From the sequence record MZ189261.1: a stretch of 64,000 nucleotides of DNA; one strand, given 5' to 3'. Source of the stretch: Escherichia phage S143_2. Positions within the stretch are counted from its first letter, which is position 1; every line of letters begins with the position of its first letter. A program made the position numbers and the translations under genes. Under the pieces are notes generated by a model that did no database searches, was not told where the DNA came from, and saw nothing but the letters and a program-made list of their open reading frames with translations. This document shows positions 1 to 61,048 of this stretch, piece after piece.

Positions 1-2214
1 TTATTTGGCCGCTTCCACGGCCTTCATGAATTTAACGATTTGAGCGACCTGTTCTTTAGAAAGAGTACCACGTCGTCCCATGTATTCTGACACAATATGA
101 TAATTGGTTTCAAATTCAATAACCATTTTATCATCATTATCGTAAGCATTATCTTTAAGCTTATCGAAAATTTTAGCACACAATTCTAACTTCCTGTTCA
201 GGTCTCTGTTATCAGCACCTGCGAATCGATTCCATCCCCAACGATTATTTACTGTTGAAAGTTTTGCAAAATCTTTACTGATTTCTTTGTTCTTAGAGCT
301 AAAATACTTACTAAGGAAGTTAAGCTCTTCATTACGAGTAATATGATTCAAATAAGGCTGTGCTCTACGACTTGGTGATACATACTCATCATAATCCACT
401 TTATCAATTAGCGTAATATAGTCATTAATTGATTTTTCGAACAAGCATTCTACTTCACCAAGTTTACGAACTTTCTTAGCAATCTGTGGACGGACTACAG
501 TGAACTCTTTAATACCTGACAAATCAGCAATACGAGTCAAGAAACTAGAATCATAGTTCAACCAACCTTTATCTGCGTCAAGACATTCAGCGTTAGAACG
601 ATTACGAATTACAACATAACCTTGAATCTCATCAGCTTTACCTGCTGGAATAAAGAGATCTTCTGATACCCAAACATCGTTTTCATTCTTAAAGAACCGA
701 TGAGCACTTGGGGATTTAGGACGAGGCCCATTAGAACGAGTCTTGACTTCAATCCATGGCTTAACGATTTGTAAAAGCTCTGAAGTCTTGTACATGTTAA
801 TGTTGTCGCCATCAAAGATAACTTTAAGACGTTCCAGAAGTTTCATTGCATCTTCGTCTGTAGGGTCAACGAATAGTACGCTTTTACCAAAACCGCGTGG
901 AACTTTACCGTTTAATTTAACCTCGTCTTTAGACATTTCAATTGAATTAAGAGCTCGCATTAATGGAACGCGTCCCTTAACGTCGTCAATAACAATTTCA
1001 ACGTTTTTAATGTTAATGCCAATCAGACTGTTAATTGAAATGGTTGATGATGAGCTACCACTTTCACGAATACGACGAAGACGAGGGTCTTCAATGATAT
1101 CGTATACGACGCCAAGATTACACCACTCAGGCCCCATTTTAAAACGTTTGTACAACTCGGAATAAGTTAGTTGTTCTTTAGAGTATTTCAGTGATTCAAT
1201 ATTAGACCCAGCCTTTTCCATGTATTTACGAGCGGTATAGCCAAGAGAATCAATTTCACGGAACACATGACGTGGGTATTTACAATCAATCCATTTCTTA
1301 GAATCTTCAGCGAACAATTTAGCATCGATTTCTGCAACGCGTTTATGGATATTTGCTACTGTACGTTTATCAAATGACAATGCTTCACGAGACGGGGCTA
1401 CATCTAGTTCACCCATAGGGAATTTAATATAAGCTGTAGTGCATCGCGTCATCATCCATGTTTGTTCTTTAATAACACTTCCGATTGGATATACAATACC
1501 ACCATAAACAGCCATGATATTACCACGTTCACCCCATGGAGCTTCCTTGGCTAAATAAACATCATCGAATTCCGGGAAGTATTTGATATCTTTAACACCA
1601 CGAACTTCTGCAATGTCACCTAGAGGACGCATAACATAAGCAATTTCGGATGCGAACTTTTCAAAATCTTCTGGGTTAACAGGCACAACTACTTCAACGC
1701 CGGTCCGGTCATCAGGACCCATCTTATCTACGAAGGTTGGCTTAATTTGTGGGCCTGTGTCATCTTGGTAGATTACGTAACCACGAACTTCACCATTGTG
1801 ATAAGACGTAAGGTTAAACGTATCAGTATATGCTAATGGAGCTTTAGAGCCGAGCCCGAATCCACCAATGAAATCGTTACTCGATGTTTTAGTTGAAGCA
1901 AAATATGAGTTATAGATTCCTGGCTCTTCATCATTACCTCGAATGGTGAAATCACTCATACCCGGACCAAAGTCTCGAACTACAAAACGTGGGTCTAAAC
2001 GACCTGGAGCCTGAACAATAAACTTATCAGTGCAACCATTAAGAATTTGTCCATCAATACAGTTTGTGATTAATTCACGTACACAAGCCAATTCTTTGTT
2101 TGTATAAAGGTCATTAGACAAAATCTTATAAACTTTGCTATTGCCTTGAATAGTAAATGCTGTGCTCTTACCGCCTGAACCAATAATCGTTTCTTTAGCC
2201 GTTTCAATAATCAT
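1..2214 (-). CDS. rIIA: rIIA protein (complete, 737 aa)
   Basis: N-terminal GHKL-like ATPase motif (ELITNCIDG), length and position match T4 rIIA; stop codon at window position 1-3. Confidence 0.85.
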   Translation of the reverse strand: MIIETAKETIIGSGGKSTAFTIQGNSKVYKILSNDLYTNKELACVRELITNCIDGQILNGCTDKFIVQAPGRLDPRFVVRDFGPGMSDFTIRGNDEEPGIYNSYFASTKTSSNDFIGGFGLGSKAPLAYTDTFNLTSYHNGEVRGYVIYQDDTGPQIKPTFVDKMGPDDRTGVEVVVPVNPEDFEKFASEIAYVMRPLGDIAEVRGVKDIKYFPEFDDVYLAKEAPWGERGNIMAVYGGIVYPIGSVIKEQTWMMTRCTTAYIKFPMGELDVAPSREALSFDKRTVANIHKRVAEIDAKLFAEDSKKWIDCKYPRHVFREIDSLGYTARKYMEKAGSNIESLKYSKEQLTYSELYKRFKMGPEWCNLGVVYDIIEDPRLRRIRESGSSSSTISINSLIGINIKNVEIVIDDVKGRVPLMRALNSIEMSKDEVKLNGKVPRGFGKSVLFVDPTDEDAMKLLERLKVIFDGDNINMYKTSELLQIVKPWIEVKTRSNGPRPKSPSAHRFFKNENDVWVSEDLFIPAGKADEIQGYVVIRNRSNAECLDADKGWLNYDSSFLTRIADLSGIKEFTVVRPQIAKKVRKLGEVECLFEKSINDYITLIDKVDYDEYVSPSRRAQPYLNHITRNEELNFLSKYFSSKNKEISKDFAKLSTVNNRWGWNRFAGADNRDLNRKLELCAKIFDKLKDNAYDNDDKMVIEFETNYHIVSEYMGRRGTLSKEQVAQIVKFMKAVEAAK

Positions 2215-2519: not shown

Positions 2520-3620
2520 TTATGCTGTGAAGATTTTATCCCACATCGCAACAACTGCATCTCGGTTATACTTCTTCCATACTGCTTCAGCACGTTTAAC
2601 TCGAGCTTCGTATGTATCAGTGAATTCTAATACAGCTTTTGTGTAAAGCGCAACTACTTCTTTCTTAGGAGTAGAGGAATCAATTTCTACACGCACAGTA
2701 TCTGGGTCGTATTCAAATGTCGCATGAGGATAATCCTTAAAAACTAACTGGATTACAGGGACACCTTTAGAGATGGCTTCAATAGAACTATTCTCTACTG
2801 TACCTGTGTCAGGACAAGTATTAATAAGTGCTTTAGCTGTTTTAAGACGTTCCATGATTTCACTGTGTGGAGCATCAATAATAACAGGATATTTAGCTGG
2901 TGGTGCCCATTTGCTTGGACAGTATCCTACACCATTTTCGCCTAGTGCTTTAATTGCTTCAAGAGCAACATCAGTGCGACGCATTTTAGTGTCATAACGT
3001 TGTGCACTAATAATCAGATCAGTCGCCGGAAGAACTTCAGGTTTCTCATTCAAACAAATAACCGGATAATCTTCGGCTTCAAACAACGGATTTGCTCGCC
3101 AATAATCATAATCAATTTTGTCAGTCAGACCTGAAGTCATATAACAATATTTGCGTTCAAATTCACGGAAGGCTTTAGTAGGAGCATAACTCTTACCACC
3201 ATTCTTATGAATTTGAATAGTCTGGTCCCAAATTTGAACAATGCCACGAGATACTGGTTCAAATGGTGTTGCCATAAAATTCTTATGAACTTTAGAGAGA
3301 CCTGCGTCTTTAATTGCCTGAACGGTTAGTTTAGTCGGTTCCATAGTAACAACAAAATCGTATTCATGGATGCCGGCTAGTTCAACAATCTTACGAGCCA
3401 TAGTATAACTCATACCTAGACTGAATTTAGTCAGATGACCAACAGGATGATGTGTAACTTTCCAGTCACCAAACGTGTCATTATCAAAGCCGATATAATC
3501 AATATCAGCACCGATGGACACAAGATATTTCAACACATTTAAATGTACTGCTTCAAGGCCACCTTGTACACGGTCAGGATTAAATGGGACTGCGCGAGAT
3601 GGGATAAACATAACTTTCAT
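2520..3620 (-). CDS. GT-B fold glycosyltransferase (GT4-like), candidate DNA glycosyl/arabinosyltransferase
   Basis: N-terminal MKVMFIPS...GG Rossmann start and C-terminal E-x7-E motif (ENSSIEAISKGVPVI); sits between rIIA.1 and gene 39. Confidence 0.6.
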   Translation of the reverse strand: MKVMFIPSRAVPFNPDRVQGGLEAVHLNVLKYLVSIGADIDYIGFDNDTFGDWKVTHHPVGHLTKFSLGMSYTMARKIVELAGIHEYDFVVTMEPTKLTVQAIKDAGLSKVHKNFMATPFEPVSRGIVQIWDQTIQIHKNGGKSYAPTKAFREFERKYCYMTSGLTDKIDYDYWRANPLFEAEDYPVICLNEKPEVLPATDLIISAQRYDTKMRRTDVALEAIKALGENGVGYCPSKWAPPAKYPVIIDAPHSEIMERLKTAKALINTCPDTGTVENSSIEAISKGVPVIQLVFKDYPHATFEYDPDTVRVEIDSSTPKKEVVALYTKAVLEFTDTYEARVKRAEAVWKKYNRDAVVAMWDKIFTA

Positions 3621-3629
3621 AATTAAGCC

Positions 3630-3663
3630 TTATTAAAATTAAAATGAAGCTCCCGAAGGAGCT
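3630..3663 (-). terminator. UUCG-tetraloop hairpin plus U-rich tail after gene 39
   Basis: minus-sense aagctcc-ttcg-ggagctt followed by cattttaatttt. Confidence 0.5.
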
Positions 3664-5480
3664 TAGGACATCCATTCTTTACGAAGTTCAGAATCATCAC
3701 CCAACAACATTTCAAAGAGTTCTTTCCAATTTTCAGGAAGTTTAACTACGTCGTACACAGGGTTCTGAATCATTTCACGATATTCTGACTTTTCAAGGGA
3801 GCCCAATCCCTTGATGTATCGAATACTATGCTTAGGCAGTGTATCTTTAGCTTCTTCATACTCAGCTACAGTATAAAACCATTTTTGAGTTTTGCCAATT
3901 TGTGCAATAATTACAGGCGTTTTAACAAAGCGAATACGTCCTTGTTCAAACAATTCAGGCCAATTACTAAAGAAAGCAAGCAAAGCCGGATAAATACTTC
4001 CAAGACCGTCATGATCGGCATCGGTCATAATTGCAATATTACGATAGTTCGTATTCTCTGCCTTTTCACCAAGAATAAGACCTGTGATAGCACAGATATC
4101 AAAGAGCTCTTTGTTCTTCATCATATCAGCATATGACATACCCCAGCTATTCATCACCTTACCACGTAATGGGAATCCGCCGTGTAGTTCACGGTCACGA
4201 ACATCAATGAGATAACCAATTGCCGAATCACCTTCTGTTAAAAACAATGTCGTATCTGCATCTTTACCACATTGGTTAGCTTTAATATGCTTATGAACCT
4301 TAGCTTTAGTTGCCTTTTTAGCTGCTTTAGTTTCTGCAGCCTTTTCTGCTGCCAATTTACGAGCTAATGCTGCTTCAACAATAGGCATAATCAAAGCTTC
4401 ATTTTTAAGAAGTGCCTGAGCAATTTTCTTAGCATCTAATTGGATATGATTACGAATATCACCATACGTTGACGTTAAACGTTCTTTAGTCTGAGAATCA
4501 AAACGCATGTTGCTCATGTCTCTAATAAACATCAACATTGTGAGACATTCTTTAACACGAGCTTTAGTGACTTCAATACCCTTATATTTCTTTTTAATGC
4601 CGGGCAAAAGATGTTCGCAGATATCATCCATTACACATTCAACATGATGACCACCATTTTTAGTATGAATGTTATTCACATAAGTTAAATGACGGAAGCC
4701 GTCTGGTGATGTTGTGAATGCTATAGAGACTTTATCATTTTCTTGAATGATGTTATCTTCACCAAATTGTTTAGCAAATCGTTTAAAATTACCATCAACC
4801 TTTTTACCATTAAATGTGAACTTGATATCAGGATAAACGACTGCCAATGTTTGAAGTCGGTCTAAAGTAATATCTAAATAAATTTGAGATAAATTATGCT
4901 CTTCAAATGAAGAGAAATCAGGAGTGAAGATTACTTTAGTGCCTTTACCTTTAGATTTCTTAGAAGACCATGATTTGTTTTCCATTCCGTTTGAACAGTT
5001 AACAGTGATTTCATTTTCGCCATCTGACGTGATGCCTGTAAACAACGTAGAGAAGATATTAGTTAAACTACTCCCGACGCCGTTCATACCACCAGTCTTA
5101 CGTTCAGAGTCATCGCCAAAGTTACCGCCAGCCTTTGGAATAGTCCAGGCTGCTACAGGCCCAGGAATTTGTTCACCTGTTTGATCGGTAACTAAACCTT
5201 GAGGAATACCACGTCCGTTATCTTCCACCGAAACTTGATTATTTTTAATTTGCACATCGATTTTATTTGCAAACTTAAATGATGTACGAATAGCTTCATC
5301 AACCGAGTTGTCAATAATCTCATCGATTAATTTAACCAGACCGGGAACATATTCAACTTGTTGATATTTACCAAACAAAAAACGCTCGTGGGCTTCTTTA
5401 GCCGAAGATCCAATATACATACCACTACGTTTCTTAATATGTTCTACATCTGATAATACCTTAATTTCATTTTTAATCAT
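3663..5480 (-). CDS. 39: DNA topoisomerase II large (ATPase) subunit, fused gp39+gp60 form
   Basis: 605 aa, MIKNEIKVLSDVEHIKKRSGMYIGS start, GyrB-like; length matches the unsplit 39/60 form. Confidence 0.9.
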   Translation of the reverse strand: MIKNEIKVLSDVEHIKKRSGMYIGSSAKEAHERFLFGKYQQVEYVPGLVKLIDEIIDNSVDEAIRTSFKFANKIDVQIKNNQVSVEDNGRGIPQGLVTDQTGEQIPGPVAAWTIPKAGGNFGDDSERKTGGMNGVGSSLTNIFSTLFTGITSDGENEITVNCSNGMENKSWSSKKSKGKGTKVIFTPDFSSFEEHNLSQIYLDITLDRLQTLAVVYPDIKFTFNGKKVDGNFKRFAKQFGEDNIIQENDKVSIAFTTSPDGFRHLTYVNNIHTKNGGHHVECVMDDICEHLLPGIKKKYKGIEVTKARVKECLTMLMFIRDMSNMRFDSQTKERLTSTYGDIRNHIQLDAKKIAQALLKNEALIMPIVEAALARKLAAEKAAETKAAKKATKAKVHKHIKANQCGKDADTTLFLTEGDSAIGYLIDVRDRELHGGFPLRGKVMNSWGMSYADMMKNKELFDICAITGLILGEKAENTNYRNIAIMTDADHDGLGSIYPALLAFFSNWPELFEQGRIRFVKTPVIIAQIGKTQKWFYTVAEYEEAKDTLPKHSIRYIKGLGSLEKSEYREMIQNPVYDVVKLPENWKELFEMLLGDDSELRKEWMS

Positions 5481-7377: not shown

Positions 7378-7428
7378 TTCTCCTCTGGTTGATATGGTTA
7401 TAATATCAAAACCGGAGGAGAAGTAAAC
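7378..7428 (-). promoter_or_regulatory. early promoter with stem-loop enclosing -10
   Basis: minus-sense GTTTAC, 17 nt, TATTAT; arms ttctcctccggttttg / caaccagaggagaa, second arm carries the SD. Confidence 0.55.
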
Positions 7429-7432
7429 AACT

Positions 7433-7852
7433 TTATGCAAAAGATGCTGGACAATATTTTTTGATTTGGAACTCAGGAACTACCATGAACTGTCCAGCGA
7501 AAACGATGTTATAAAGCTTAACACCATCTTCTACCCATTGGTCCGAAATAAAACCAGCAACTTGCTTAGTTTTCCACGGTGTTCCATCAGTTGCCGCAGC
7601 AATAGTGAATTCATGGTCTTTTACAACTAAAACAGACCTGCACAGTTTCCATTTGAACACACGTTCTTCTGGCTCAATGAATTGGCTTTTAACATAACCA
7701 ATGTTACCATCAACGTCACGAACTTTAACTTCGTTACGTCCAAAAACCGGATCACTCACAGAAAGAACTTCAACCAACTTCCCGGCAACTTTAGAGCGAG
7801 AAGCAACAGATACATATACGTAATCACCTGTAGAGAGATTTACAATATTCAT
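7433..7852 (-). CDS. KOW-like small protein, MotB-like paralog 1
   Basis: shares SRSK(A/V)AG(K/R)LVEV and GFISDQWVEDG.KLYNIVF blocks with next ORF; lies upstream of dexA as motB does in T4. Confidence 0.5.
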   Translation of the reverse strand: MNIVNLSTGDYVYVSVASRSKVAGKLVEVLSVSDPVFGRNEVKVRDVDGNIGYVKSQFIEPEERVFKWKLCRSVLVVKDHEFTIAAATDGTPWKTKQVAGFISDQWVEDGVKLYNIVFAGQFMVVPEFQIKKYCPASFA

Positions 7853-8392: not shown

Positions 8393-8422
8393 ATTTTTTC
8401 TCTCTTTGTTTAAGTTGAATTC

Positions 8423-8452
8423 ATTATACTCCAACCATCCTTGGTTGTAAAC
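8423..8452 (-). promoter_or_regulatory. early promoter cassette class A
   Basis: minus-sense GTTTAC, 18 nt with caaccaaggatggttg hairpin, TATAAT; same cassette at 49593 and 50613. Confidence 0.55.
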
Positions 8453-8457
8453 TGGTT

Positions 8458-9135
8458 TTATCGCTGTTTTACACTTAACGGATCAGGATTCTCAGGGACA
8501 TCTTCAAGGCCAAGCGCATAACGCTGGGCATATTTTAACATCAAAATATCTTTAGCACAATCATGAATACTATCATGGGCAACGAATCCTTTTAGCGTAC
8601 CCATTGGTAATGGACACATACTTAATCCTCGTGTCAACGAGTAAGCTTCGATTGCCGTACGAATATCGCGTTGAGCCCAGAATTTAACCGGTTCTAATTT
8701 ATCAGTATCAATCTCTGGTTCAGGAACACCTTCATCACGATAGAGGTCACGAATCAAATCAACCAAGATCGGGAAGTCAAAGCTCATACCACGGCACCAC
8801 ATCTGTGATTTCCATTGGTCAACTTTATTAGCTCGACAATAATCTAAAAAGATTTTAATGCCTTCAAGCGTAGTGACATCGTCTTCAGACGGAGCCAAGT
8901 TTTTACGTGCTTCAGCCGATTGTTCTTTCCACCATTTCATAGTGGATTTAGCGAAAACTCGCTTCCCTTTCTGAGAAGCTAAATTAAATTTAATTCGCTT
9001 ACCTCGTTGAACAAGTTCTTCAAATGATTCAACAACTTCAGGGTCGGAATTATATGCAATAACCGCAAGGTCAATAACAGCCGCTTTTGATGTATTGCCG
9101 AATGTTTCAAAATCTATAATAACATCAGTGCTCAT
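8458..9135 (-). CDS. dexA: exonuclease A (DnaQ-like 3'-5' exonuclease)
   Basis: IIDFETFG exo motif, 225 aa, synteny with dda. Confidence 0.8.
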   Translation of the reverse strand: MSTDVIIDFETFGNTSKAAVIDLAVIAYNSDPEVVESFEELVQRGKRIKFNLASQKGKRVFAKSTMKWWKEQSAEARKNLAPSEDDVTTLEGIKIFLDYCRANKVDQWKSQMWCRGMSFDFPILVDLIRDLYRDEGVPEPEIDTDKLEPVKFWAQRDIRTAIEAYSLTRGLSMCPLPMGTLKGFVAHDSIHDCAKDILMLKYAQRYALGLEDVPENPDPLSVKQR

Positions 9136-16122: not shown

Positions 16123-16590
16123 TCACAACTTATTAATATTTACTTTAATTCGCTTTCTTTTCTTGGAAGGAATTTGTTCTGGACCTTTATTTACTACTGC
16201 ACCTGTAGTTGTTCCTGATGCAATAGCTTGAGGGCTGCCACCTGAATCACCAGCAACCATATCCTCAAATAAAGGGAGTTCTTTAAATATTTCTTTCTGC
16301 TGTTCTTCCGTAATGTTATAGCGTGAAGCTACAGCACTCCAGGCAGACATCATTGAGGCCATTCCATTAAGACCTGGAACAGTGCTCATCATTCGCTTCA
16401 TTGAACGAACTGAAGCATGAAAAGGTGTATAAGCCGCTTTCTCTTCAGGAGTGGAAGGACGTTTAAGAACACTTCCACGTTCATCGATGATTTTGGCTTC
16501 GTATGCTTTCCATTCGGTAAAAGGTTTTTGCATTAGTCGAATAAACTTATATGCGTAAACAGAATCTATTGCAGTGTTAATAATACCCAT
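16123..16590 (-). CDS. hypothetical protein with basic C-terminal tail
   Basis: ORF track trimmed to ATG (MGIINT) behind AGGAGG SD. Confidence 0.5.
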   Translation of the reverse strand: MGIINTAIDSVYAYKFIRLMQKPFTEWKAYEAKIIDERGSVLKRPSTPEEKAAYTPFHASVRSMKRMMSTVPGLNGMASMMSAWSAVASRYNITEEQQKEIFKELPLFEDMVAGDSGGSPQAIASGTTTGAVVNKGPEQIPSKKRKRIKVNINKL

Positions 16591-18556: not shown

Positions 18557-18769
18557 CTATTTTAAACTTTTGCGAAATTTGCGTTTTTCTTGACGAATCT
18601 GTCGTTTAGTCGGACGTACAGCAAATTTAACGAAGTCCACTTTGCCGTGTGGAAACTTTTCAGATGCTTCACAGTCCATCATTAGTTCCCATCCTTCCAG
18701 AATAAGAGCTTTCCATTGTGTAGTTGATGCAAATTCGTATGTTGATGGTTTAAACACAGTTGAATACAT
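18557..18769 (-). CDS. small protein with basic C-terminal RPTKRQIR tail
   Basis: trimmed to ATG (MYSTVF); C-terminal motif shared with 46987..47157. Confidence 0.45.
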   Translation of the reverse strand: MYSTVFKPSTYEFASTTQWKALILEGWELMMDCEASEKFPHGKVDFVKFAVRPTKRQIRQEKRKFRKSLK

Positions 18770-18770
18770 A

Positions 18771-18962
18771 TTATCCTCTGAAATCAGCTTCAAAAACTTT
18801 CTCGTCATTAACAAATGCTTTAACTAATGCTTTGTTCACTTCAGCAAGTTGTACCGCAACCCACTCGATTTCTTCACGGTCACCTGATAACATGATATCT
18901 TTAGTGAACGTATTATCATTTTTAAACCAGCCAATAAAAGTAACTTTAGTTAATTTGCTCAT
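18771..18962 (-). CDS. dmd: Dmd-like antitoxin (discriminator of mRNA degradation)
   Basis: 63 aa, FIGWFKNDNTFTK...AEVNKALVKAF...FRG pattern; start trimmed to ATG (MSKLTK). Confidence 0.6.
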   Translation of the reverse strand: MSKLTKVTFIGWFKNDNTFTKDIMLSGDREEIEWVAVQLAEVNKALVKAFVNDEKVFEADFRG

Positions 18963-19276
18963 ATTTCCTCGCAAAATGCCCATTCAGCGTGATAAACTGT
19001 AGCACCTTTAGTATTATTCATTTGAACTACATCTACCGGAGAAATTACTCGATAGAGACGTGGTTCACCTCCATAAGAGCGTGCTGCTCGTCCTGCATAA
19101 ATCTTTGCTAAACCGATATCTTCGGTAAAGAATACACGATCCAAGTTTTTCTTACGTCCTGTTTCAGACAGAACTCCTGTTTCTTCAGGAGGACAAAGCA
19201 TGTTTTCGATGTTAGCTGAACTACTTGAACCGTGATAAAAAATCTTAAATTCTGCTTTACAATCGATGGTTTTCAT
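18959..19276 (-). CDS. hypothetical protein (105 aa)
   Basis: ORF track. Confidence 0.5.
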   Translation of the reverse strand: MKTIDCKAEFKIFYHGSSSSANIENMLCPPEETGVLSETGRKKNLDRVFFTEDIGLAKIYAGRAARSYGGEPRLYRVISPVDVVQMNNTKGATVYHAEWAFCEEI

Positions 19277-19280
19277 TTTG

Positions 19281-19331
19281 TTCTCCAGTAGTTGATAGGT
19301 CTATAATAACACAACTACTGGAGAAGTAAAC
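19281..19331 (-). promoter_or_regulatory. early promoter with perfect stem-loop enclosing -10
   Basis: minus-sense GTTTAC, 17 nt, TATTATAGACCTATC; arms ttctccagtagttg / caactactggagaa. Confidence 0.6.
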
Positions 19332-19706
19332 TTAAAAACGTAATTTAGATATATCTGCGTTGATTTCGTTTTGGTTTGCGTCGTATGCAATTAAACGAAC
19401 CGCTTTAGATGGGTCATTCAATGCATAGAAATGATGGAACATTGCTCGAACGATATCACCATTTACGAGTTCTACCTGGATAGGAGAACCTTTTTCGAGT
19501 TGGAAATGTTCATAAGCTTTGATGGTTCGTAGATAATCAAGTTTTTGATTTCCAGCTCCAACTATTTGTACGATACGTTTGCCTGTGTTTTCCATACGAG
19601 ATACAATAGTTTTAGGAGCAAGAATAACGTAGGTTGCCAGCGGAGAAACTACTTCAACAGTTGTGTTTTCGGTGATTGCAGTAAAAATTGCTTGAGACAT
19701 ATTCAT
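19332..19706 (-). CDS. hypothetical protein (124 aa)
   Basis: ORF track. Confidence 0.5.
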   Translation of the reverse strand: MNMSQAIFTAITENTTVEVVSPLATYVILAPKTIVSRMENTGKRIVQIVGAGNQKLDYLRTIKAYEHFQLEKGSPIQVELVNGDIVRAMFHHFYALNDPSKAVRLIAYDANQNEINADISKLRF

Positions 19707-44252: not shown

Positions 44253-46066
44253 TGGTGTTTAACCCTATGCATGATTTCTTTATTTTTGCCGAGATTAAAT
44301 CCGCGTTCGTTCGGATTTCCCAAATAACCACAAGTTCTTCTTATTGTGTTCATCTTTTTAGGGTCAGTTTCTCCGCAAACTGAACAAACAAATCCGTTTT
44401 CAGTAGGAGTCATTTCATGGGTACTTCCACATGTAAAACATTTATCTACTGGCATATTAACACCAAAATAATCTAAATGTTGTGCGGCATAATCCCATAC
44501 AGCCTCAAGACCTTTTAAGTTATTTTTCATATCAGGAAGTTCAACATAAGAAATGTGTCCGCCAGTCGCAATGAAATGATATGGGGCTTCGCGAGAAATC
44601 TTTTCAAACGGAGTGATATTTTCTTCTACTGAAACATGGAAACTATTAGTGTACCAGCCTTTATCAGTAACATCCTTTACACTTCCATATTTTTCAGTAT
44701 CAAGTTTACAGAAGCGATAACAAAGGTTTTCAGCAGGTGTAGAATACAAACTAAAAGCAAAACCGGTTCTTTCAGTCCACTGTTTAAGATGAGCATTCAT
44801 TTTAGTTAAAATTTCTTGTCCAATATCACGACCGACAAGAATATTCAATTCGTGAATACCAATGTATCCTAGGGACACTGAACTTCTACCGTTTTTAAAT
44901 AACTCAATTATATCGTCATCAGGTTTAAGACGAACCCCGAATGCACCTTCTTGGTAAAGAATAGGAGCAACAGTCGCTTTAACTCCTTTTAAGGAACTAA
45001 TTCTACACATCAAAGCTTCAAAACACAAATCCATTCGTTCATTGAACAATTCGGCAAATTTCTGTTCATTGAATTGTGTTCCAATATAAGAATCTAACGC
45101 AATGCGAGGAAGATTCAGTGTTACAACACCAAGATTATTGCGTCCATCAAGAATTTCATTACCAGTCGAATCTTTCCATACACTCAAGAAACTACGGCAA
45201 CCCATTGGAGAAACTGGAACTGAAGAACCAGTAATAGCTTTATTATTCTTAACCGAAATAATGTCAGGATACATTCTTTTGCTTGCACATTCTAACGCAA
45301 GTTGTTTAATATCATAGTTCGGATCATCTTTATAAAGATTAACACCTTCTTCAACGAACATAACAAGCTTAGGGAAAATAGGAGTTATTCCATCACGACC
45401 AAGGCCTTTAATGCGGTTTTTAAGAATTGCTTTCTGAATCATTCGTTCAGTCCAGTCGGTTCCTGTACCAAATGTAATTGTTACAAAAGGAGTCTGTCCG
45501 TTTGAACTAAAGAGAGTATTTACTTCATATTCATAAGCTTGGAATGCATCGTATACGTCTTTTTCTGTTTTAGATTGAGCATAATTCAACGCATCAGCGA
45601 TTTGCCATTTTTCTGCATCTTCAACATGTTTAGCGTATGTGCGTTTAACATAAGGAGAAAGAACTTTATCGACATTCGCAAATGTAGTTCCGCCATATTG
45701 GTGTGAAGCAACTTGTGCGGTAATTTGTGCCATAATTGCAGTAGCAACGCCAATAGATTTAGGCGTTTCAATTTGAGCATTGCCTAATTTAAATCCATTC
45801 TCAAGCATCCCCTTTAAATCGACTAAACAGCAATTAGTAAATGGAAGAGCAGGAGAATAATCAATATCATGCATGTGAATGATTCCGCTTTCATGCGCAT
45901 TCATAATAAAAGACGGGACCATATTTTTGGCAATGTGCTTAGACACAATACCAGCCATAAGGTCCCGTTGAGTTGGAAAAACACGAGAATCTTTATTAGC
46001 ATTCTCGTTTAAAAGGTCTTTATTAGTTTTATGAATTAATCCTTCAATTTCTTTTTCAATTTTCAT
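44249..46066 (-). CDS. nrdD: anaerobic ribonucleoside-triphosphate reductase NrdD (class III), uninterrupted
   Basis: 605 aa, C-terminal glycyl-radical motif RTCGYLG, Zn site CFTCGSTHE...CSVCG. Confidence 0.95.
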   Translation of the reverse strand: MKIEKEIEGLIHKTNKDLLNENANKDSRVFPTQRDLMAGIVSKHIAKNMVPSFIMNAHESGIIHMHDIDYSPALPFTNCCLVDLKGMLENGFKLGNAQIETPKSIGVATAIMAQITAQVASHQYGGTTFANVDKVLSPYVKRTYAKHVEDAEKWQIADALNYAQSKTEKDVYDAFQAYEYEVNTLFSSNGQTPFVTITFGTGTDWTERMIQKAILKNRIKGLGRDGITPIFPKLVMFVEEGVNLYKDDPNYDIKQLALECASKRMYPDIISVKNNKAITGSSVPVSPMGCRSFLSVWKDSTGNEILDGRNNLGVVTLNLPRIALDSYIGTQFNEQKFAELFNERMDLCFEALMCRISSLKGVKATVAPILYQEGAFGVRLKPDDDIIELFKNGRSSVSLGYIGIHELNILVGRDIGQEILTKMNAHLKQWTERTGFAFSLYSTPAENLCYRFCKLDTEKYGSVKDVTDKGWYTNSFHVSVEENITPFEKISREAPYHFIATGGHISYVELPDMKNNLKGLEAVWDYAAQHLDYFGVNMPVDKCFTCGSTHEMTPTENGFVCSVCGETDPKKMNTIRRTCGYLGNPNERGFNLGKNKEIMHRVKHQ

Positions 46067-46536
46067 TTTAAACTCTTTCTAAGCTGCTTTTTGAATGAAG
46101 CTATTAATTGTGTTTTAGTATCTGATTCATTATATTCAAATCCTCTTTGAAGCATCTCGGTCATCATTTCCTCTTTACCTAGTCTTGAGAACTCTTTAGT
46201 TTTGTCTGGAACAAAATTAGGATGGATATTATTATCAGAATAATCTTGTTTCAAATAAGCGAGAAGAGCTTCAAGCCATTCTAGGTAGTCGACATCACGG
46301 CCTTTAAGACCAGAACGGTTGAACTTATGCTTCATTTGACCTTCTGCTGCGTTGCACAGATTACAGAGTAATCCACGAACTCTACCGGCTTTTGGCCCGT
46401 TTAATTCATGGTCGTGGTCAAGATGGTTACCTTGAACATCAGGGTCTAATTCACGGTGGCAAATAGGACACTTACCGTTCTGTGCATCATAAAATTTTTG
46501 TTTTTCTTCTTTATATTTTGCGCCTGATAATAACAT
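46063..46536 (-). CDS. 49: endonuclease VII (Holliday junction resolvase) gp49
   Basis: 157 aa, CPICHREL...HLDHDHELNGPKAGRVRGLLCNLCN zinc/HNH-like core. Confidence 0.9.
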   Translation of the reverse strand: MLLSGAKYKEEKQKFYDAQNGKCPICHRELDPDVQGNHLDHDHELNGPKAGRVRGLLCNLCNAAEGQMKHKFNRSGLKGRDVDYLEWLEALLAYLKQDYSDNNIHPNFVPDKTKEFSRLGKEEMMTEMLQRGFEYNESDTKTQLIASFKKQLRKSLK

Positions 46537-46571
46537 GATAAACCCTTACCTTAAATAGATAAGGGTATTTA

Positions 46572-46986: not shown

Positions 46987-47157
46987 TCAATATTCTCTAT
47001 AAAAGTTACGATGAGAACGTTTAGCTTTGCGAAGCTGACGTTTAGTAGGACGAACTGTAAATGGTTGTCCAGAGAAAAAATTCGGATCGGTTTTAATAAG
47101 CAAATACCAATCATGTTTGCCATTTTTTAATAAACGGTACAATAATTTAACTTGCAT
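46987..47157 (-). CDS. small protein with basic C-terminal RPTKRQLR tail
   Basis: trimmed to ATG behind GGGAAGAG SD; motif shared with 18557..18769. Confidence 0.4.
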   Translation of the reverse strand: MQVKLLYRLLKNGKHDWYLLIKTDPNFFSGQPFTVRPTKRQLRKAKRSHRNFYREY

Positions 47158-47285
47158 AATAATCTCTTCCCATTTCCATATCAATTAATTCATTTATTGA
47201 AGGTTCATCATAACACGTTTCTTCGTCGTTGTAAACTGTTTCAACGTCTGGCTCGACAGTCTCCCAACGAGCAGAATACCACGGT

Positions 47286-47642
47286 TTAACCCCGGAGTTT
47301 ATTGAGCTCTTCATAATCAATCCAGGATTCTAGCCCTGACGGTAGGTCACATTCAATGTTCCACAGAAGCTCTTCAATGGCTTGCAGGCGATTATATTCT
47401 TCAACGGTAATGGTAACCATTGGTGCAACCGGTTCTGCCTTTTTAACCATCATATCGTTCATCAGGACGTAAAGGTCATCACGAACGACAGTGTCGTTCC
47501 AACCCCATGATTTGGCTTCGTAAGCTAATGATGAAGGGAGCACATTTAAAACTTCAATAATAGTTGGAGCATCAGGACCAAGTTCATTGGCACAAACTTC
47601 GTATACATCTTGGAAATCTTTAAGATTTAATGAATATGTCAT
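47286..47642 (-). CDS. hypothetical protein (118 aa)
   Basis: ORF track. Confidence 0.5.
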   Translation of the reverse strand: MTYSLNLKDFQDVYEVCANELGPDAPTIIEVLNVLPSSLAYEAKSWGWNDTVVRDDLYVLMNDMMVKKAEPVAPMVTITVEEYNRLQAIEELLWNIECDLPSGLESWIDYEELNKLRG

Positions 47643-49563: not shown

Positions 49564-49592
49564 AATATTTTCCTCTCGTTAAGATAGAAAGA

Positions 49593-49621
49593 TTATACTC
49601 CAACCATCCTTGGTTGTAAAC
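49593..49621 (-). promoter_or_regulatory. early promoter cassette class A
   Basis: minus-sense GTTTAC, 17 nt with caaccaaggatggttg hairpin, TATAAT. Confidence 0.55.
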
Positions 49622-49625
49622 TGAT

Positions 49626-50585
49626 TTATGATTTTAATGCATTCATTGCGTTAAAAAGTTTAGAGTACTGCAACTGGAGCTTGGTAACTACTTGTTGAGC
49701 ATCACGAAGCTTAGCTTGTGCTTTGTCAAGTTCAACAGACAGTTGGTCCACAGTGGCTTTAATTTGATTATAATAGTAATCTTCGGCCGGAAGAAGGTCA
49801 TTAGAAACATTTAGTTTTACTGCAGACAGTTTGCACACATTTGGCAAACCTTTAAACATTGATTTACCCGAAGTAGAATAAGCACTTAGGACTTCGGCCT
49901 GTTCAATTGGGGTCCCAGTAAGCGATGCTTCAAACAATGCATTTTCCTTTTTAAGATTTTGATAGTATTCAGAGTCTTTGTGCCACCATGGCGCAGGAAC
50001 CTTTTTACCAATAGATACACGAGCCTGGATAGCGATATGGCCCTTATTCTTGATAGGGTCGATAATATTAAGCTCACGAGAATAAATTGCTTTAATCTGG
50101 TGAATATTATCACCTAACACTTCCAACGCTCGGTGGAATACACGAGCAACGTTATCATTCTTAGGTTTATACGTAAGAGTGAACTCGTTCTCACTGATAA
50201 CCATGATTTCCAACTTATCGTAAGTATATTTCAAATGTTTCATGTTAATTGCTTGAGGACGAATACGAGAAGCAATGGCCATCAGATTGTTAAGGTTATT
50301 CCGGAACTGCTTAGCGAAATATTGTCCTTCACCACCAATACAAAAATTACGAAGTTTCTGTTTGGCTAATAAACGGCTGAACTCACCATTTTTAATGAAC
50401 TCTTTAACGGGTGTGTTAGTAACGCATTCAAATTGAGTAAACTTACGAGAAGTAATCCCATAATACGAACAGATTTCCTCAATCTCTTCAGGAGTCTTTA
50501 CAGGCATACGGATAGGATTAGGACCTGGGGTATATGCGTTCGAGGTAAATTCTTTGATAAGTTCTCTACGTGTAATAAAAGCCAT
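49626..50585 (-). CDS. hypothetical protein with C-terminal coiled coil (319 aa)
   Basis: ORF track. Confidence 0.55.
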   Translation of the reverse strand: MAFITRRELIKEFTSNAYTPGPNPIRMPVKTPEEIEEICSYYGITSRKFTQFECVTNTPVKEFIKNGEFSRLLAKQKLRNFCIGGEGQYFAKQFRNNLNNLMAIASRIRPQAINMKHLKYTYDKLEIMVISENEFTLTYKPKNDNVARVFHRALEVLGDNIHQIKAIYSRELNIIDPIKNKGHIAIQARVSIGKKVPAPWWHKDSEYYQNLKKENALFEASLTGTPIEQAEVLSAYSTSGKSMFKGLPNVCKLSAVKLNVSNDLLPAEDYYYNQIKATVDQLSVELDKAQAKLRDAQQVVTKLQLQYSKLFNAMNALKS

Positions 50586-50612
50586 TTTATATTCCTCATG
50601 TTGAAAAATTTA

Positions 50613-50641
50613 TTATACTCCAACCATCCTTGGTTGTACAT
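50613..50641 (-). promoter_or_regulatory. early promoter cassette class A (variant -35)
   Basis: same ctccaaccatccttggttg core, TATAAT, -35 TGTACA. Confidence 0.5.
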
Positions 50642-51636
50642 CATTCCTTAAGAAGTTTTACTACCTGAATAAGATTAGCTCGTTCTGTTTTATTTTTACC
50701 GTTTAAGCCTGCTAATCGTGAGATTTCATCGTCAGTCTGTTGAATAGTTACATTAAGTTCGTTAATCAAAGCTTCAAAGTATTTGATTTGCTCAGCATGT
50801 TTTGATTCAAATTTCTGAACTGGAATAACGTCTTGGTTTAGTTCATCAATAAGGTCTTTAAGAGCATCTTCTTGGTTGATATCATATTCAACTTCTTTTA
50901 TTTCTTCAACGAGCTCGTCTTTATATCTAACGTCTTTTAGTCCTGGTGCTGGTCCTGAAATCTCTTCTTTAAGAGTACAAACATATCCAATACGATATCC
51001 AATGCCGTCTCGCTTGATATCAACTTCGTCAATAAATCCACAATGTTTAAGACCAGAGCCGATTAAGTCAAAATATCCTTGACGTCGTCCTTCAAACGTT
51101 ACACGAACTACTAAGACAGTTTTACCTGCAACCTTTTGAAGCTCACATTTATAAAAGTCTGTTGAACCTGAATAACGTGGATGAGTTTTAAAGTTCATCT
51201 GACGATCTAGGCCCATTTGTAAGCGTGCTGATACGGCCATAAAACGTGTTTGGTTCTCGTTAAGATGAGCAACAATCCATTTCAAAGGCATTTTACACTG
51301 TTCACGACCGAACAAATCAGTATATCCTAGATTACGCAGAATGTTGTTAGAGTTAATCATCGACAGAACGTTAAGTTTATTCAGCGCGCTGAAGATTCCA
51401 TCGGCCATTGATTTTCCGTAACCTTTACACGCTTTAATAAGCGCTCGCGGTAGATTAGTATAGATTTCAGACGGCATATGAAAATCAAATTTACTAGTCA
51501 GTAATTGATGAACTTGGATAGCAATTTGCTCATAATTAAGCGCTCTGCGATCATTATGGTCTTTAAACCACACTTTAATCTGTGAAGCACATAAACCGTT
51601 AATTTCATGTTTTACCGCATCAGATGTAATGCTCAT
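50641..51636 (-). CDS. hypothetical protein with C-terminal coiled coil (331 aa)
   Basis: ORF track. Confidence 0.55.
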   Translation of the reverse strand: MSITSDAVKHEINGLCASQIKVWFKDHNDRRALNYEQIAIQVHQLLTSKFDFHMPSEIYTNLPRALIKACKGYGKSMADGIFSALNKLNVLSMINSNNILRNLGYTDLFGREQCKMPLKWIVAHLNENQTRFMAVSARLQMGLDRQMNFKTHPRYSGSTDFYKCELQKVAGKTVLVVRVTFEGRRQGYFDLIGSGLKHCGFIDEVDIKRDGIGYRIGYVCTLKEEISGPAPGLKDVRYKDELVEEIKEVEYDINQEDALKDLIDELNQDVIPVQKFESKHAEQIKYFEALINELNVTIQQTDDEISRLAGLNGKNKTERANLIQVVKLLKE

Positions 51637-52226: not shown

Positions 52227-52244
52227 GTTTTACCTCCAGTAGTT

Positions 52245-52282
52245 GATAGGTCTATAATAACATAACCATAGACCTTGTAAAC
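52245..52282 (-). promoter_or_regulatory. early promoter with stem-loop
   Basis: minus-sense GTTTAC, 17 nt, TATTATAGACCTATC; aggtcta...tagacct arms. Confidence 0.55.
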
Positions 52283-52284
52283 AA

Positions 52285-52572
52285 CTAAAAGAAACTTTTT
52301 TCGGTATTTTTTCCACTGAACCAAACAGACTTCGGGATTTTTTGTAATTTTTCAGATTTAAGTTTCTCTTCCTGTTCTTTCTTATATACACTCTTGTCGT
52401 ACTGGAGCATCTCTATGGCATTCTTTTGCAAATGATCTAAGGTAATTAAGGCTTTAGTTTTTCCTTTCAAGGAAGAGTCCTGGCGAACTTCCTCGCTATA
52501 TTGCATCGTAGAACTAACCATACGATGTGCATACAGTTCGACTGCGGCTTTGATTTTTTGCATAAAATCCAT
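52285..52572 (-). CDS. hypothetical protein (95 aa)
   Basis: ORF track. Confidence 0.45.
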   Translation of the reverse strand: MDFMQKIKAAVELYAHRMVSSTMQYSEEVRQDSSLKGKTKALITLDHLQKNAIEMLQYDKSVYKKEQEEKLKSEKLQKIPKSVWFSGKNTEKSFF

Positions 52573-53760: not shown

Positions 53761-53979
53761 TTATTTGCGACGAGATTTTTTGGTAAGAGGTTGAAAGAAC
53801 ACTGCTTTACCGGCTGGGGTTAAGGTGACTCGTAATGCATTACCGATTCCTAAGGATGCTTTAACTAGACCTTTAGCTTTCAGTTCACCGAATGCTTGAC
53901 GTTGGTCTGCGTCACGAGTGTTAACCATAAGACCTTTATCACCTGCTTCACGAATCATTTCTAACATTTTGGTTTTCAT
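53761..53979 (-). CDS. small basic protein, possible DNA-binding
   Basis: ORF track 53761..54036 trimmed to ATG (MKTKMLEMI) behind GAGGAGAA SD. Confidence 0.45.
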   Translation of the reverse strand: MKTKMLEMIREAGDKGLMVNTRDADQRQAFGELKAKGLVKASLGIGNALRVTLTPAGKAVFFQPLTKKSRRK

Positions 53980-60777: not shown

Positions 60778-60828
60778 TTCTCCTCTAGTTGACAGGTCTA
60801 TAGTAACACAACTAGAGGAGAAGTAAAC
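60778..60828 (-). promoter_or_regulatory. early promoter with perfect stem-loop
   Basis: minus-sense GTTTAC, 17 nt, TACTATAGACCTGTC; arms ttctcctctagttg / caactagaggagaa. Confidence 0.6.
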
Positions 60829-60832
60829 TACT

Positions 60833-61048
60833 TTATTGATAAAATGGAGTTAAAGCCCAAGATTCTTTAGATACCATATCGGCGAAATGCCTCATCTCTT
60901 CGATTTGGCGACGACGCTGGTCAGCATAGTCTTCTTCGCCTTCTTCCTTACAATCTTCAAGGTCTTCTTCAAGATACTTTAAGTATTCACTACAAATTTT
61001 GTTGACCTTTTCTTGAAAGTCCAATAACCCAGTAATAGTAGAAGCCAT
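60833..61048 (-). CDS. hypothetical acidic protein (71 aa)
   Basis: ORF track. Confidence 0.45.
   Translation of the reverse strand: MASTITGLLDFQEKVNKICSEYLKYLEEDLEDCKEEGEEDYADQRRRQIEEMRHFADMVSKESWALTPFYQ

What the first reader, a model, noticed from the sequence alone, without database searches (positions are those of the whole stretch)
18557..18769. Two distant small genes share a basic C-terminal motif F.VRPTKRQ(I/L)R
The 70-aa protein at 18557..18769 ends ...FAVRPTKRQIRQEKRKFRKSLK and the 56-aa protein at 46987..47157 ends ...FTVRPTKRQLRKAKRSHRNFYREY. The underlying DNA is also similar (cgtttagt.ggacg.ac). Their N-terminal parts differ. Several other small proteins here end in Lys/Arg-rich tails (16123..16590, 53761..53979).
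Basis: seen in the sequence. Interest (0 to 1): 0.4.

Follow-up and report, generated by a model that had tools for sequence, protein, structure and literature searches.

The report
TifA anti-toxin and a short paralog
The shared basic motif is the known RNA-binding helix of the phage protein TifA, which disarms the bacterial ToxN toxin. The second gene is an unstudied, shorter relative of TifA sitting in another part of this RB69-like phage genome.

Summary
Both genes exist as described, and they are each other's only significant match in the window. Both hit Pfam DUF7279, at 72 and 54 bits against a cut-off of 24.5.

The window is an RB69-like T-even phage (Mosigvirus). The 70-aa gene (18557..18769, minus strand) is tifA (gp61.4) and is 100% identical to RB69 TifA. 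Published work shows that the Pro-Thr cap (P53, T54) and the basic residues K55, R56 and R59 form an RNA-binding helix. That helix is required to neutralise the type III toxin ToxN. So the motif is already explained.

The 56-aa gene (46987..47157, minus strand) is the intact form of RB69ORF089c. It is a short TifA paralog that lies next to pin, not next to dmd.
- Its AlphaFold model (pLDDT 84.5) has three strands followed by a PT-capped basic helix.
- The segment corresponding to the ToxN-contacting loop is 6 residues shorter and not conserved.
- It is under purifying selection (dN/dS 0.07-0.19).
- I found no literature on it.

The DNA similarity is no more than shared codons would give.

Verdict: a known family and a known mechanism, plus an uncharacterised family member whose target is unknown.

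The parts
18557..18769 (-). tifA (gp61.4), 70 aa, inhibitor of the ToxN toxin; long member of DUF7279
   Evidence: 100% identical to RB69 gp61.4 by tblastn. Syntenic with RB69p038, directly downstream of dmd. Pfam PF23945 E 3.5e-20. Function comes from PMC9391042 and PMC10853763.
18560..18625 (-). Codons 49-70 of TifA: FAV-R-P53-T54-K55-R56-Q-I-R59-QEKRKFRKSLK. This is the Pro-Thr-capped basic helix that binds RNA.
   Evidence: Sequence read directly. P53A/T54A and K55A/R56A/R59A variants of RB69 TifA lose RNA co-purification and ToxN neutralisation (PMC10853763 section 25).
46987..47157 (-). Short TifA-family paralog, 56 aa; intact ortholog of RB69ORF089c; function untested
   Evidence: Pfam PF23945 E 1.1e-14 and PHROG 3272. 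AF2 model pLDDT 84.5 with strands 2-9, 15-24, 27-33 and helix 39-55. dN/dS 0.07-0.19 between diverged Mosigvirus orthologs. 145 phage records carry it at 80% identity or more.
46990..47061 (-). Codons 33-56 of the short paralog: FTV-R-P37-T38-K39-R40-Q-L-R43-KAKRSHRNFYREY. This is the equivalent capped basic helix.
   Evidence: Alignments A1, A2 and A6 and hhalign put P37, T38, K39, R40, R43, K46, R47 and R50 in register with TifA P53, T54, K55, R56, R59, K62, R63 and R66. The helix starts right after PT in both AF2 runs.
18771..18962 (-). dmd (antitoxin against RnlA/LsoA), immediately upstream of tifA. Its stop codon is 1 nt from the tifA ATG.
   Evidence: Pfam Dmd E 2.2e-21, RB69 annotation, sequence.
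19281..19349 (-). T4-type early promoter embedded in a stem-loop cassette, upstream of the ORF040c-dmd-tifA gene string
   Evidence: Promoter-like site at 19330..19303. It belongs to repeat families D1, D3 and D4, which recur at least 7 times in the window. Early transcription of dmd-tifA in T4 is from PMC9391042.
46572..46985 (-). pin (PinA inhibitor of host Lon protease), starting 1 nt after the stop of the short paralog
   Evidence: Pfam Inhibitor_I24 E 2.9e-47, sequence.
47147..47314 (-). True ortholog of T4 gp49.1. It overlaps the start of the short paralog by 11 nt, which suggests translational coupling.
   Evidence: Translation matches T4 gp49.1 and RB69p090. The overlap was read.

Best explanation
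The window is from an RB69-like T-even phage. The motif F-x-V-R-P-T-K-R-Q-(I/L)-R...K-R..R is the signature of the TifA family (Pfam DUF7279). A Pro-Thr pair caps a C-terminal alpha-helix, and one face of that helix is lined with Lys/Arg that bind RNA.

Shown:
- Gene 1 (18557..18769) is tifA itself. The encoded protein is identical to RB69 TifA, an early protein that binds both RNA and the type III endoribonuclease toxin ToxN. It traps ToxN in a large ribonucleoprotein complex, notably on 16S rRNA, so that phage transcripts escape cleavage. Mutating the PT cap or K55/R56/R59 abolishes RNA binding and ToxN neutralisation. This is published work.
- Gene 2 (46987..47157) is a diverged, shorter paralog. 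It is the intact form of RB69ORF089c, in the nrdC-pin-49 region. It keeps the three-stranded sheet, the invariant Trp strand, the PT cap and all the basic positions that were mutated in TifA. The segment corresponding to TifA's ToxN-contacting loop (the one carrying residue 41) is 6 residues shorter and not conserved. It also lacks about 10 N-terminal residues.

Inferred:
- Gene 2 also binds RNA through the same helix.
- It uses its different sheet and loop surface to hold some other partner on RNA. The most likely partner is another RNA-targeting defence toxin, or a ToxN type that TifA does not cover.
For: Identity and context:
- 97-99% DNA identity to RB69 and JS09, with the same gene order.
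- TifA is 100% identical to RB69 gp61.4.
- Both proteins pass Pfam DUF7279.
- Only these two ORFs in the window match the family HMM.
- hhalign of the long and short subfamilies gives 97.2% probability, E 3.2e-11.

Mechanism of the motif (PMC10853763 sections 21, 25 and 27):
- KD of 0.36-2.3 uM for 15-45 nt RNAs.
- The P53A/T54A and K55A/R56A/R59A variants lose RNA binding and ToxN rescue.

Short paralog:
- AF2 with a 10-sequence alignment gives pLDDT 84.5, with strands 2-9, 15-24 and 27-33 and helix 39-55 right after P37-T38.
- W, P, T, K, R, K, R and R are invariant across both subfamilies.
- dN/dS is 0.07-0.19.
- The gene is tightly packed between gp49.1 and pin.

Specificity resides outside the helix:
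- TifA homologs from other phages failed to neutralise any ToxN or TenpN tested.
- Residue 41 in the loop tunes inhibition.

Counter-defence context:
- tifA lies with dmd, imm, sp and 61.2/adfA.
- A distant DUF7279 member sits two genes from a Tad2-like gene.
Against: - No experiment exists for the short paralog. RNA binding and any target are inferred from conserved residues and a predicted fold.
- The AF2 alignment had only 10 sequences.
- RB69 carries the related short paralog ORF087c, yet it is still restricted by the ToxN escape alleles K111N, K111R, Y115H and L118S (PMC10853763 section 22). So at least that short type does not cover those alleles.
- T4 lost its short paralog through a 137-bp deletion, and the RB69 reference has ORF089c frameshifted. 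The gene is therefore dispensable on laboratory hosts.
Confidence: 0.8

Rival explanations
1. The short paralog is simply a second, redundant inhibitor of the same ToxN toxin (gene dosage or backup for TifA).
For: It has the same family, the same RNA-binding helix and a similar fold. Higher TifA dosage is selected under toxIN pressure in T4 (PMC9391042).
Against: The region between the invariant Trp and the F-x-V-R-P-T motif holds the ToxN-contacting loop and residue 41. It is 15 residues instead of 21 and is not conserved. TifA-family members only moderately diverged from T4 and RB69 TifA already fail on every ToxN tested. RB69, which carries the short ORF087c, is still blocked by the ToxN escape alleles.
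Confidence: 0.15
2. The short paralog is a general small RNA- or ribosome-binding protein used for host takeover or translation control, and is not a counter-defence factor.
For: TifA binds RNA with little sequence preference and associates with 16S rRNA. The short protein keeps mainly the RNA-binding module. It is co-transcribed with housekeeping-type early genes (nrdC, pin, 49).
Against: It is an accessory gene with patchy distribution. It was lost in T4, is frameshifted in the RB69 reference, and is present or absent among close relatives. That pattern is typical of counter-defence genes and not of core takeover functions. The only characterised family member is a counter-defence protein.
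Confidence: 0.2
3. The two proteins are small basic proteins packaged in the virion with the DNA.
For: They are small and Lys/Arg-rich, and TifA also binds ssDNA and dsDNA in vitro.
Against: [quoted passage not shown] Both genes sit in early, minus-strand gene strings. Read directly, neither N-terminus resembles the capsid-targeting leader of T4 internal proteins (that comparison rests on my own knowledge of those leaders).
Confidence: 0.03
4. The similarity reflects a functional DNA element (a recombination or regulatory site), recent gene conversion, or chance in AT-rich sequence.
For: A 17-nt string with two wildcards occurs exactly twice in 64 kb.
Against: The pattern was derived from these same two sites, so that test is circular. 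Codon identity at conserved residues is 6/12 against 5.05 +/- 1.67 expected. Conservation extends at the protein level to an invariant Trp 16-22 residues upstream. No Rfam family matches.
Confidence: 0.02

Closest known systems
TifA (T4 gp61.4 / RB69 gp61.4), the ToxN inhibitory factor; Pfam DUF7279 (PF23945)
   Same: Gene 1 is this protein, 100% identical to RB69 TifA. Gene 2 shares the Pfam domain, the invariant Trp strand, the PT cap, the basic helix positions K, R, R, K, R, R, and a predicted strand-strand-strand-helix architecture.
   Different: Gene 2 is 14 residues shorter. It has a segment 6 residues shorter where TifA has its ToxN-contacting loop, and it lacks about 10 N-terminal residues. 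It has its own conserved tail (K-R-x-H-R-x-F-Y). It lies next to pin/49 instead of dmd, and it has never been tested.
RB69ORF087c / PP01_083 / VR20_080 type short proteins (PHROG 3272 relatives)
   Same: They are 56-61 aa and about 40% identical to gene 2. They have the same PT-capped basic helix and the same K-R-x-H-R-x-F-Y tail, and they lie in the same nrdC-pin-49 region.
   Different: They lie between gene 49 and pin, downstream of pin, and they have a 3-residue longer strand2-strand3 connection. This type is absent from the window. In T4 it is reduced to a 16-codon relic fused to pin.
Dmd (gp61.5), phage antitoxin against RnlA/LsoA
   Same: It is a neighbouring small early protein that neutralises a host RNase toxin, and it is in the same operon as tifA.
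   Different: It belongs to an unrelated family (Pfam PF17587). By published accounts it binds its toxin directly and has no RNA requirement.
ToxI RNA and phage-encoded pseudo-ToxI repeats (phage PhiTE escape)
   Same: Both neutralise the same toxin, ToxN, on behalf of a phage.
   Different: Those are RNA antitoxins that occupy the ToxN RNA groove. TifA-family members are proteins that need RNA as a co-factor.
Double-stranded RNA-binding domain (dsRBD)

Membership tests
TifA family / Pfam DUF7279 | Match to the PF23945 profile above the gathering score (24.5 bits) | tested here: met
   70-aa protein: 72.1 bits, E 3.5e-20. 56-aa protein: 54.5 bits, E 1.1e-14.
TifA family / Pfam DUF7279 | Pro-Thr helix cap followed by the basic cluster (K55, R56, R59 in RB69 TifA numbering) | tested here: met
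   TifA has P53, T54, K55, R56 and R59. The short paralog has P37, T38, K39, R40 and R43 in register, plus K46, R47 and R50 against K62, R63 and R66.
TifA family / Pfam DUF7279 | [quoted passage not shown] | tested here: met
   56-aa protein: strands 2-9, 15-24 and 27-33 and helix 39-55, pLDDT 84.5. The 70-aa protein was not modelled here, but it is identical to the RB69 TifA modelled in PMC10853763.
TifA proper (ToxN inhibitor) | A loop of about 20 residues carrying residue 41, which contacts ToxN | tested here: not met
   This verdict is for the 56-aa paralog: 15 residues between the invariant W and F instead of 21, with no sequence conservation, and AF2 gives a tight hairpin. The 70-aa protein meets the feature (H41, as in RB69).
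TifA proper (ToxN inhibitor) | Position immediately downstream of dmd in an early operon | tested here: not met
   This verdict is for the 56-aa gene, which lies between gp49.1 and pin, 28 kb away. The 70-aa gene meets the feature: its ATG is 1 nt after the dmd stop.
TifA proper (ToxN inhibitor) | Binds RNA and neutralises ToxN | not testable with these tools
   For the 70-aa protein this is covered by the literature on the identical RB69 protein. Nothing is known for the 56-aa protein. None of the homologs tested in PMC10853763 Table S2 is of the short pin-linked type.
Packaged internal/basic virion proteins of T-even phages | N-terminal capsid-targeting leader, and late or head-gene context | tested here: not met
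   Both genes lie in early minus-strand gene strings with T4-type early promoters. The N-termini MYSTVFKPSTY and MQVKLLYRLLK were read directly, and no leader-like sequence was recognised. The leader definition comes from my own knowledge and not from a tool.
dsRBD | alpha-beta-beta-beta-alpha fold with a significant structural or sequence match | tested here: not met

The most novel reading that the evidence does not exclude
The pin-linked short DUF7279 proteins (the RB69ORF089c type in this window and the ORF087c type elsewhere) are a distinct set of counter-defence factors. On this reading they reuse TifA's trick of tethering a toxin to bulk RNA through the PT-capped basic helix, but against a different host RNase or RNA-targeting defence system. 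T-even phages would then carry a small diversifying family of RNA-dependent anti-toxins, and not a single tifA gene.
Probability: 0.35. Interest if true: 0.55.

Novelty: new member of a known kind. Interest (0 to 1): 0.3.

Why it matters
The motif itself needs no new explanation. It is the experimentally defined RNA-binding helix of TifA.

What is useful is that the same module recurs in several copies per genome:
- two copies in this window;
- three in RB69;
- at least two in the Dhakavirus vB_EcoM_005, with a pin-linked short type in the related phage IME08.

The short pin-linked copies have never been tested, although they occur in several hundred T-even-type phages and are under purifying selection. 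Most TifA-family members tested so far inhibit no known ToxN, so the family's range of targets is open. The short paralogs are cheap, well-defined candidates for new anti-defence activities. They could also show how far the idea of RNA acting as a molecular glue extends as a way to inhibit toxins.

Tried and rejected
- I first took the 56-aa gene for the T4 gp49.1 ortholog, following the RB69 annotation order. Translation showed that gp49.1 is the ORF just upstream (47147..47314) and that the 56-aa gene corresponds to RB69ORF089c.
- The word-indexed protein search returned only near-identical clusters. The exhaustive representative search gave only 8 hits at E below 1e-3, because the domain is tiny.
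- Single-sequence AF2 gave a poor N-terminal model (pLDDT 63). I used only the alignment-based model.
- One MAFFT alignment (A1) lined up FPHG of the TifA loop with FFSG of the paralog. Deeper alignments and hhalign did not keep this pairing, so I do not claim loop-tip conservation.
- The DNA pattern search is circular. I replaced it with the codon-usage test.
- Rfam and tRNA scans of the window found nothing.
- Literature searches for DUF7279 and for RB69ORF087c/089c found nothing relevant.

Full report
**What the window is.** The two regions are 97-99% identical at the DNA level to RB69, JS09 and many other Mosigvirus phages (T-even type), with the same gene order. Recognisable neighbours confirm this:
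- gene 41 helicase, dmd, imm, imm.1 and spackle around the first gene;
- nrdD, endonuclease VII (gene 49), pin and nrdC around the second.

**Check of the observation.**
- BLASTP of the pair gives 12/19 identities (E 8e-7).
- Among 1272 six-frame ORFs of the window, each is the other's only significant phmmer hit.
- A family HMM built from 19 sequences finds only these two (E 2.6e-24 and 1.5e-21; next best 0.33).
- Both pass Pfam DUF7279/PF23945 well above the cut-off. They fall in different but cross-matching PHROGs, 2375 and 3272.
- A profile-profile comparison of the long (TifA-type) and short subfamilies gives 97.2% probability, E 3.2e-11, over TifA 23-69 and short 13-53.

So the relationship is real. 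It extends beyond the C-terminal motif to an invariant Trp-containing strand.

**The DNA similarity is real but not independent.** Over 19 aligned codons, 39/57 nt are identical. At the 12 identical residues, 6 use the same codon, against 5.05 +/- 1.67 expected from the window's codon usage.

**Gene 1 is tifA.** The 70-aa protein is 100% identical to RB69 gp61.4. It sits 1 nt downstream of dmd, behind a T4-type early promoter and stem-loop cassette at 19281..19349.
- Srikant, Guegler and Laub (eLife 2022, PMC9391042) renamed gene 61.4 tifA. T4 escapes the type III toxin-antitoxin system toxIN by amplifying dmd-tifA, TifA neutralises ToxN, and RB69 TifA is the stronger inhibitor.
- Guegler et al. 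(NAR 2023/24, PMC10853763) worked largely with RB69 TifA. They showed that it binds RNA with a KD of 0.36-2.3 uM for 15-45 nt RNAs.
- ToxN and TifA form a large ribonucleoprotein complex enriched in 16S rRNA.
- The conserved Pro-Thr pair (P53, T54) caps a C-terminal basic helix.
- The P53A/T54A and K55A/R56A/R59A variants lose RNA co-purification, ToxN rescue and co-immunoprecipitation with ToxN.

In the window protein these are exactly residues P53, T54, K55, R56 and R59 of ...FAVRPTKRQIRQEKRKFRKSLK.

**Gene 2 is an unstudied short paralog.** It is not the T4 gp49.1 ortholog, which is the ORF just upstream (47147..47314). It corresponds to RB69ORF089c. That ORF is annotated as only 38 aa because the RB69 reference has one extra A in an A6 run, at window 47123..47128. 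Of the 222 phage records matched at E below 1e-3, 145 carry the 56-aa type at 80% identity or more, and all but 2 of the 222 cover at least 80% of the query.

Evidence that it is a real gene:
- dN/dS is 0.07-0.19 between diverged orthologs.
- It is tightly packed in its gene string. It overlaps gp49.1 by 11 nt, and pin starts 1 nt after its stop.

AlphaFold2 with a 10-sequence alignment gives a confident model (pLDDT 84.5). It has strands 2-9, 15-24 and 27-33, then a helix 39-55 that begins right after P37-T38. This is the architecture published for TifA: a three-stranded sheet plus a C-terminal basic helix. All the basic positions that matter in TifA are in register: K39, R40, R43, K46, R47 and R50.

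What differs from TifA:
- The stretch between the invariant Trp and the F-x-V-R-P-T motif is 15 residues instead of 21 and is not conserved. In TifA this stretch holds the roughly 20-residue loop with residue 41 that contacts ToxN.
- About 10 N-terminal residues of TifA have no counterpart.
- The short subfamily has its own invariant tail, K-R-x-H-R-x-F-Y.

**Family picture.**
- RB69 carries a third member, ORF087c, between gene 49 and pin. This window lacks it.
- The ORF087c type occurs in Mosigvirus, many Tequatrovirus (e.g. PP01), Gaprivervirus and Dhakavirus. It is always in the nrdC-pin-49 region.
- T4 itself has no short paralog, but it has a relic. Relative to PP01, a clean 137-bp deletion fuses pin in frame to the last 16 codons of the ORF087c-type gene. 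T4 Pin therefore ends ...DRMIQQYKRLHQMFYNT.
- vB_EcoM_005 has two family members in its dmd-sp locus.
- A distant 81-aa member lies in contigs that also carry a phiTE-family protein domain, next to RdgC and two genes from a Tad2-like gene.
- None of the ten TifA homologs tested in PMC10853763 is of the short pin-linked type. Neither paper mentions 49.1 or paralogs. I found no paper on ORF087c or ORF089c.

**How it most likely works.**

*Shown:* TifA binds RNA through the capped basic helix, binds ToxN through its sheet and loop side, and so immobilises ToxN on abundant RNA.

*Inferred for the short paralog:*
- It binds RNA the same way.
- It has a different protein partner, because the specificity-determining loop is shortened and diverged.
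- In the published screen, TifA-family members from JS98, VR7, EcS1, 005, PM2 and CB4 already fail on every ToxN and TenpN tested.
- RB69 carries ORF087c yet is still restricted by the ToxN escape alleles. So at least that short type does not simply back up TifA.

I rate the identity and homology part as near certain. I rate the reading 'RNA-dependent inhibitor of another RNA-targeting defence' at about one in three. The main alternatives are a general RNA- or ribosome-binding role (about 0.2) and plain redundancy with TifA (about 0.15).

**Comparison with known structures.**
- There is no solved relative. The PDB profile search gave nothing and the best Foldseek E-value was 0.8.
- BFVD returns only uncharacterised small phage proteins, for example from Citrobacter phage Merlin (TM 0.83) and Salmonella phage S16.

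**Verdict.** The other half adds an uncharacterised member, in fact a subfamily, to a known family. Nothing supports packaging into the virion or a DNA-level element. Interest is modest. This is a good lead for anti-defence screening and not a surprise.

Noticed in passing
L003 (T4 NC_000866) 1398-1600 minus strand, compared with L004 (PP01) 1330-1700: T4 Pin ends ...SFSDRMIQQYKRLHQMFYNT. Relative to PP01, a clean 137-bp deletion removes the end of pin and the first ~41 codons of the short TifA-like gene (PP01_083). This fuses pin in frame to the last 16 codons of that gene's basic helix. T4 therefore carries only a relic of the short paralog, as a Pin tail.
   Followed up: yes
window 47123..47128 (T6 on the plus strand); L002 around 2300: The RB69 reference has one extra A in this homopolymer run. 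This frameshifts ORF089c, which is therefore annotated as a 38-aa TTG-start ORF. Nearly all other Mosigvirus records have the intact 56-aa gene. It could be a sequencing error, a lab-strain mutation or slippage.
   Followed up: partly
window 46537..46571 (junction of gene 49 and pin): The third family member of RB69, ORF087c (59 aa, between gene 49 and pin), is absent here. Gene 49 and pin are only 35 nt apart. In phage PECP20 the opposite holds: pin is missing and the 56-aa gene abuts gene 49. This region is a presence/absence hot spot.
   Followed up: partly
L005 (vB_EcoM_005) 2417-2656 and 3444-3665: This Dhakavirus has two DUF7279 genes in its dmd-sp locus. The 73-aa one, annotated 'nucleotidyltransferase', is the 'tifA vB_EcoM_005' tested and found inactive in PMC10853763. 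The 79-aa JS98-like one sits downstream of dmd.
   Followed up: partly
window 7378-7446, 19281-19349, 52232-52300, 60778-60846 and others (repeat families D1-D5): Early-promoter cassettes of about 45-70 nt recur at least 7 times. On the minus strand they read GTTTAC...TATTATAGACCTATCAA, and several are embedded in an inverted repeat. They resemble the mobile promoter-early stem-loop cassettes described for T4-type phages (from memory, not checked). One drives the ORF040c-dmd-tifA string.
   Followed up: no
window 46987..46998, compared with orthologs (alignment A4): The last three codons of the 56-aa gene switch between REY, RGY and NIY/NVY among otherwise near-identical orthologs. NVY is the tail of the ORF087c type, which suggests small mosaic exchanges between the two short paralogs.
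   Followed up: partly
window 46063..46080 (gene 49 C-terminus) and 18557..18574: Endonuclease VII ends ...KKQLRKSLK and TifA ends ...RKFRKSLK. They share an identical C-terminal pentapeptide. This is probably coincidence.
   Followed up: no
window 18959..19276 (minus strand): The 105-aa ORF (RB69ORF040c ortholog) heads the same early gene string as dmd and tifA and overlaps the dmd start by 4 nt. It has no Pfam hit. By position it is a candidate for another counter-defence gene.
   Followed up: no
L011 and L012, 4001-5600: A distant 81-aa DUF7279 protein (P0008) lies in a long array of small early-type genes, directly upstream of an RdgC-family gene and two genes from a Tad2-like (anti-Thoeris family) gene. 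One contig also carries a Phage_phiTE_015 domain protein.
   Followed up: no
window 8410-8458, 49579-49627, 50599-50647 (repeat family D6): A second repeated block of about 49 nt (…TTATACTCCAACCATCCTTGGTTGTAAAC…) occurs three times. It creates shared peptide strings in overlapping ORFs. I did not examine it further.
   Followed up: no
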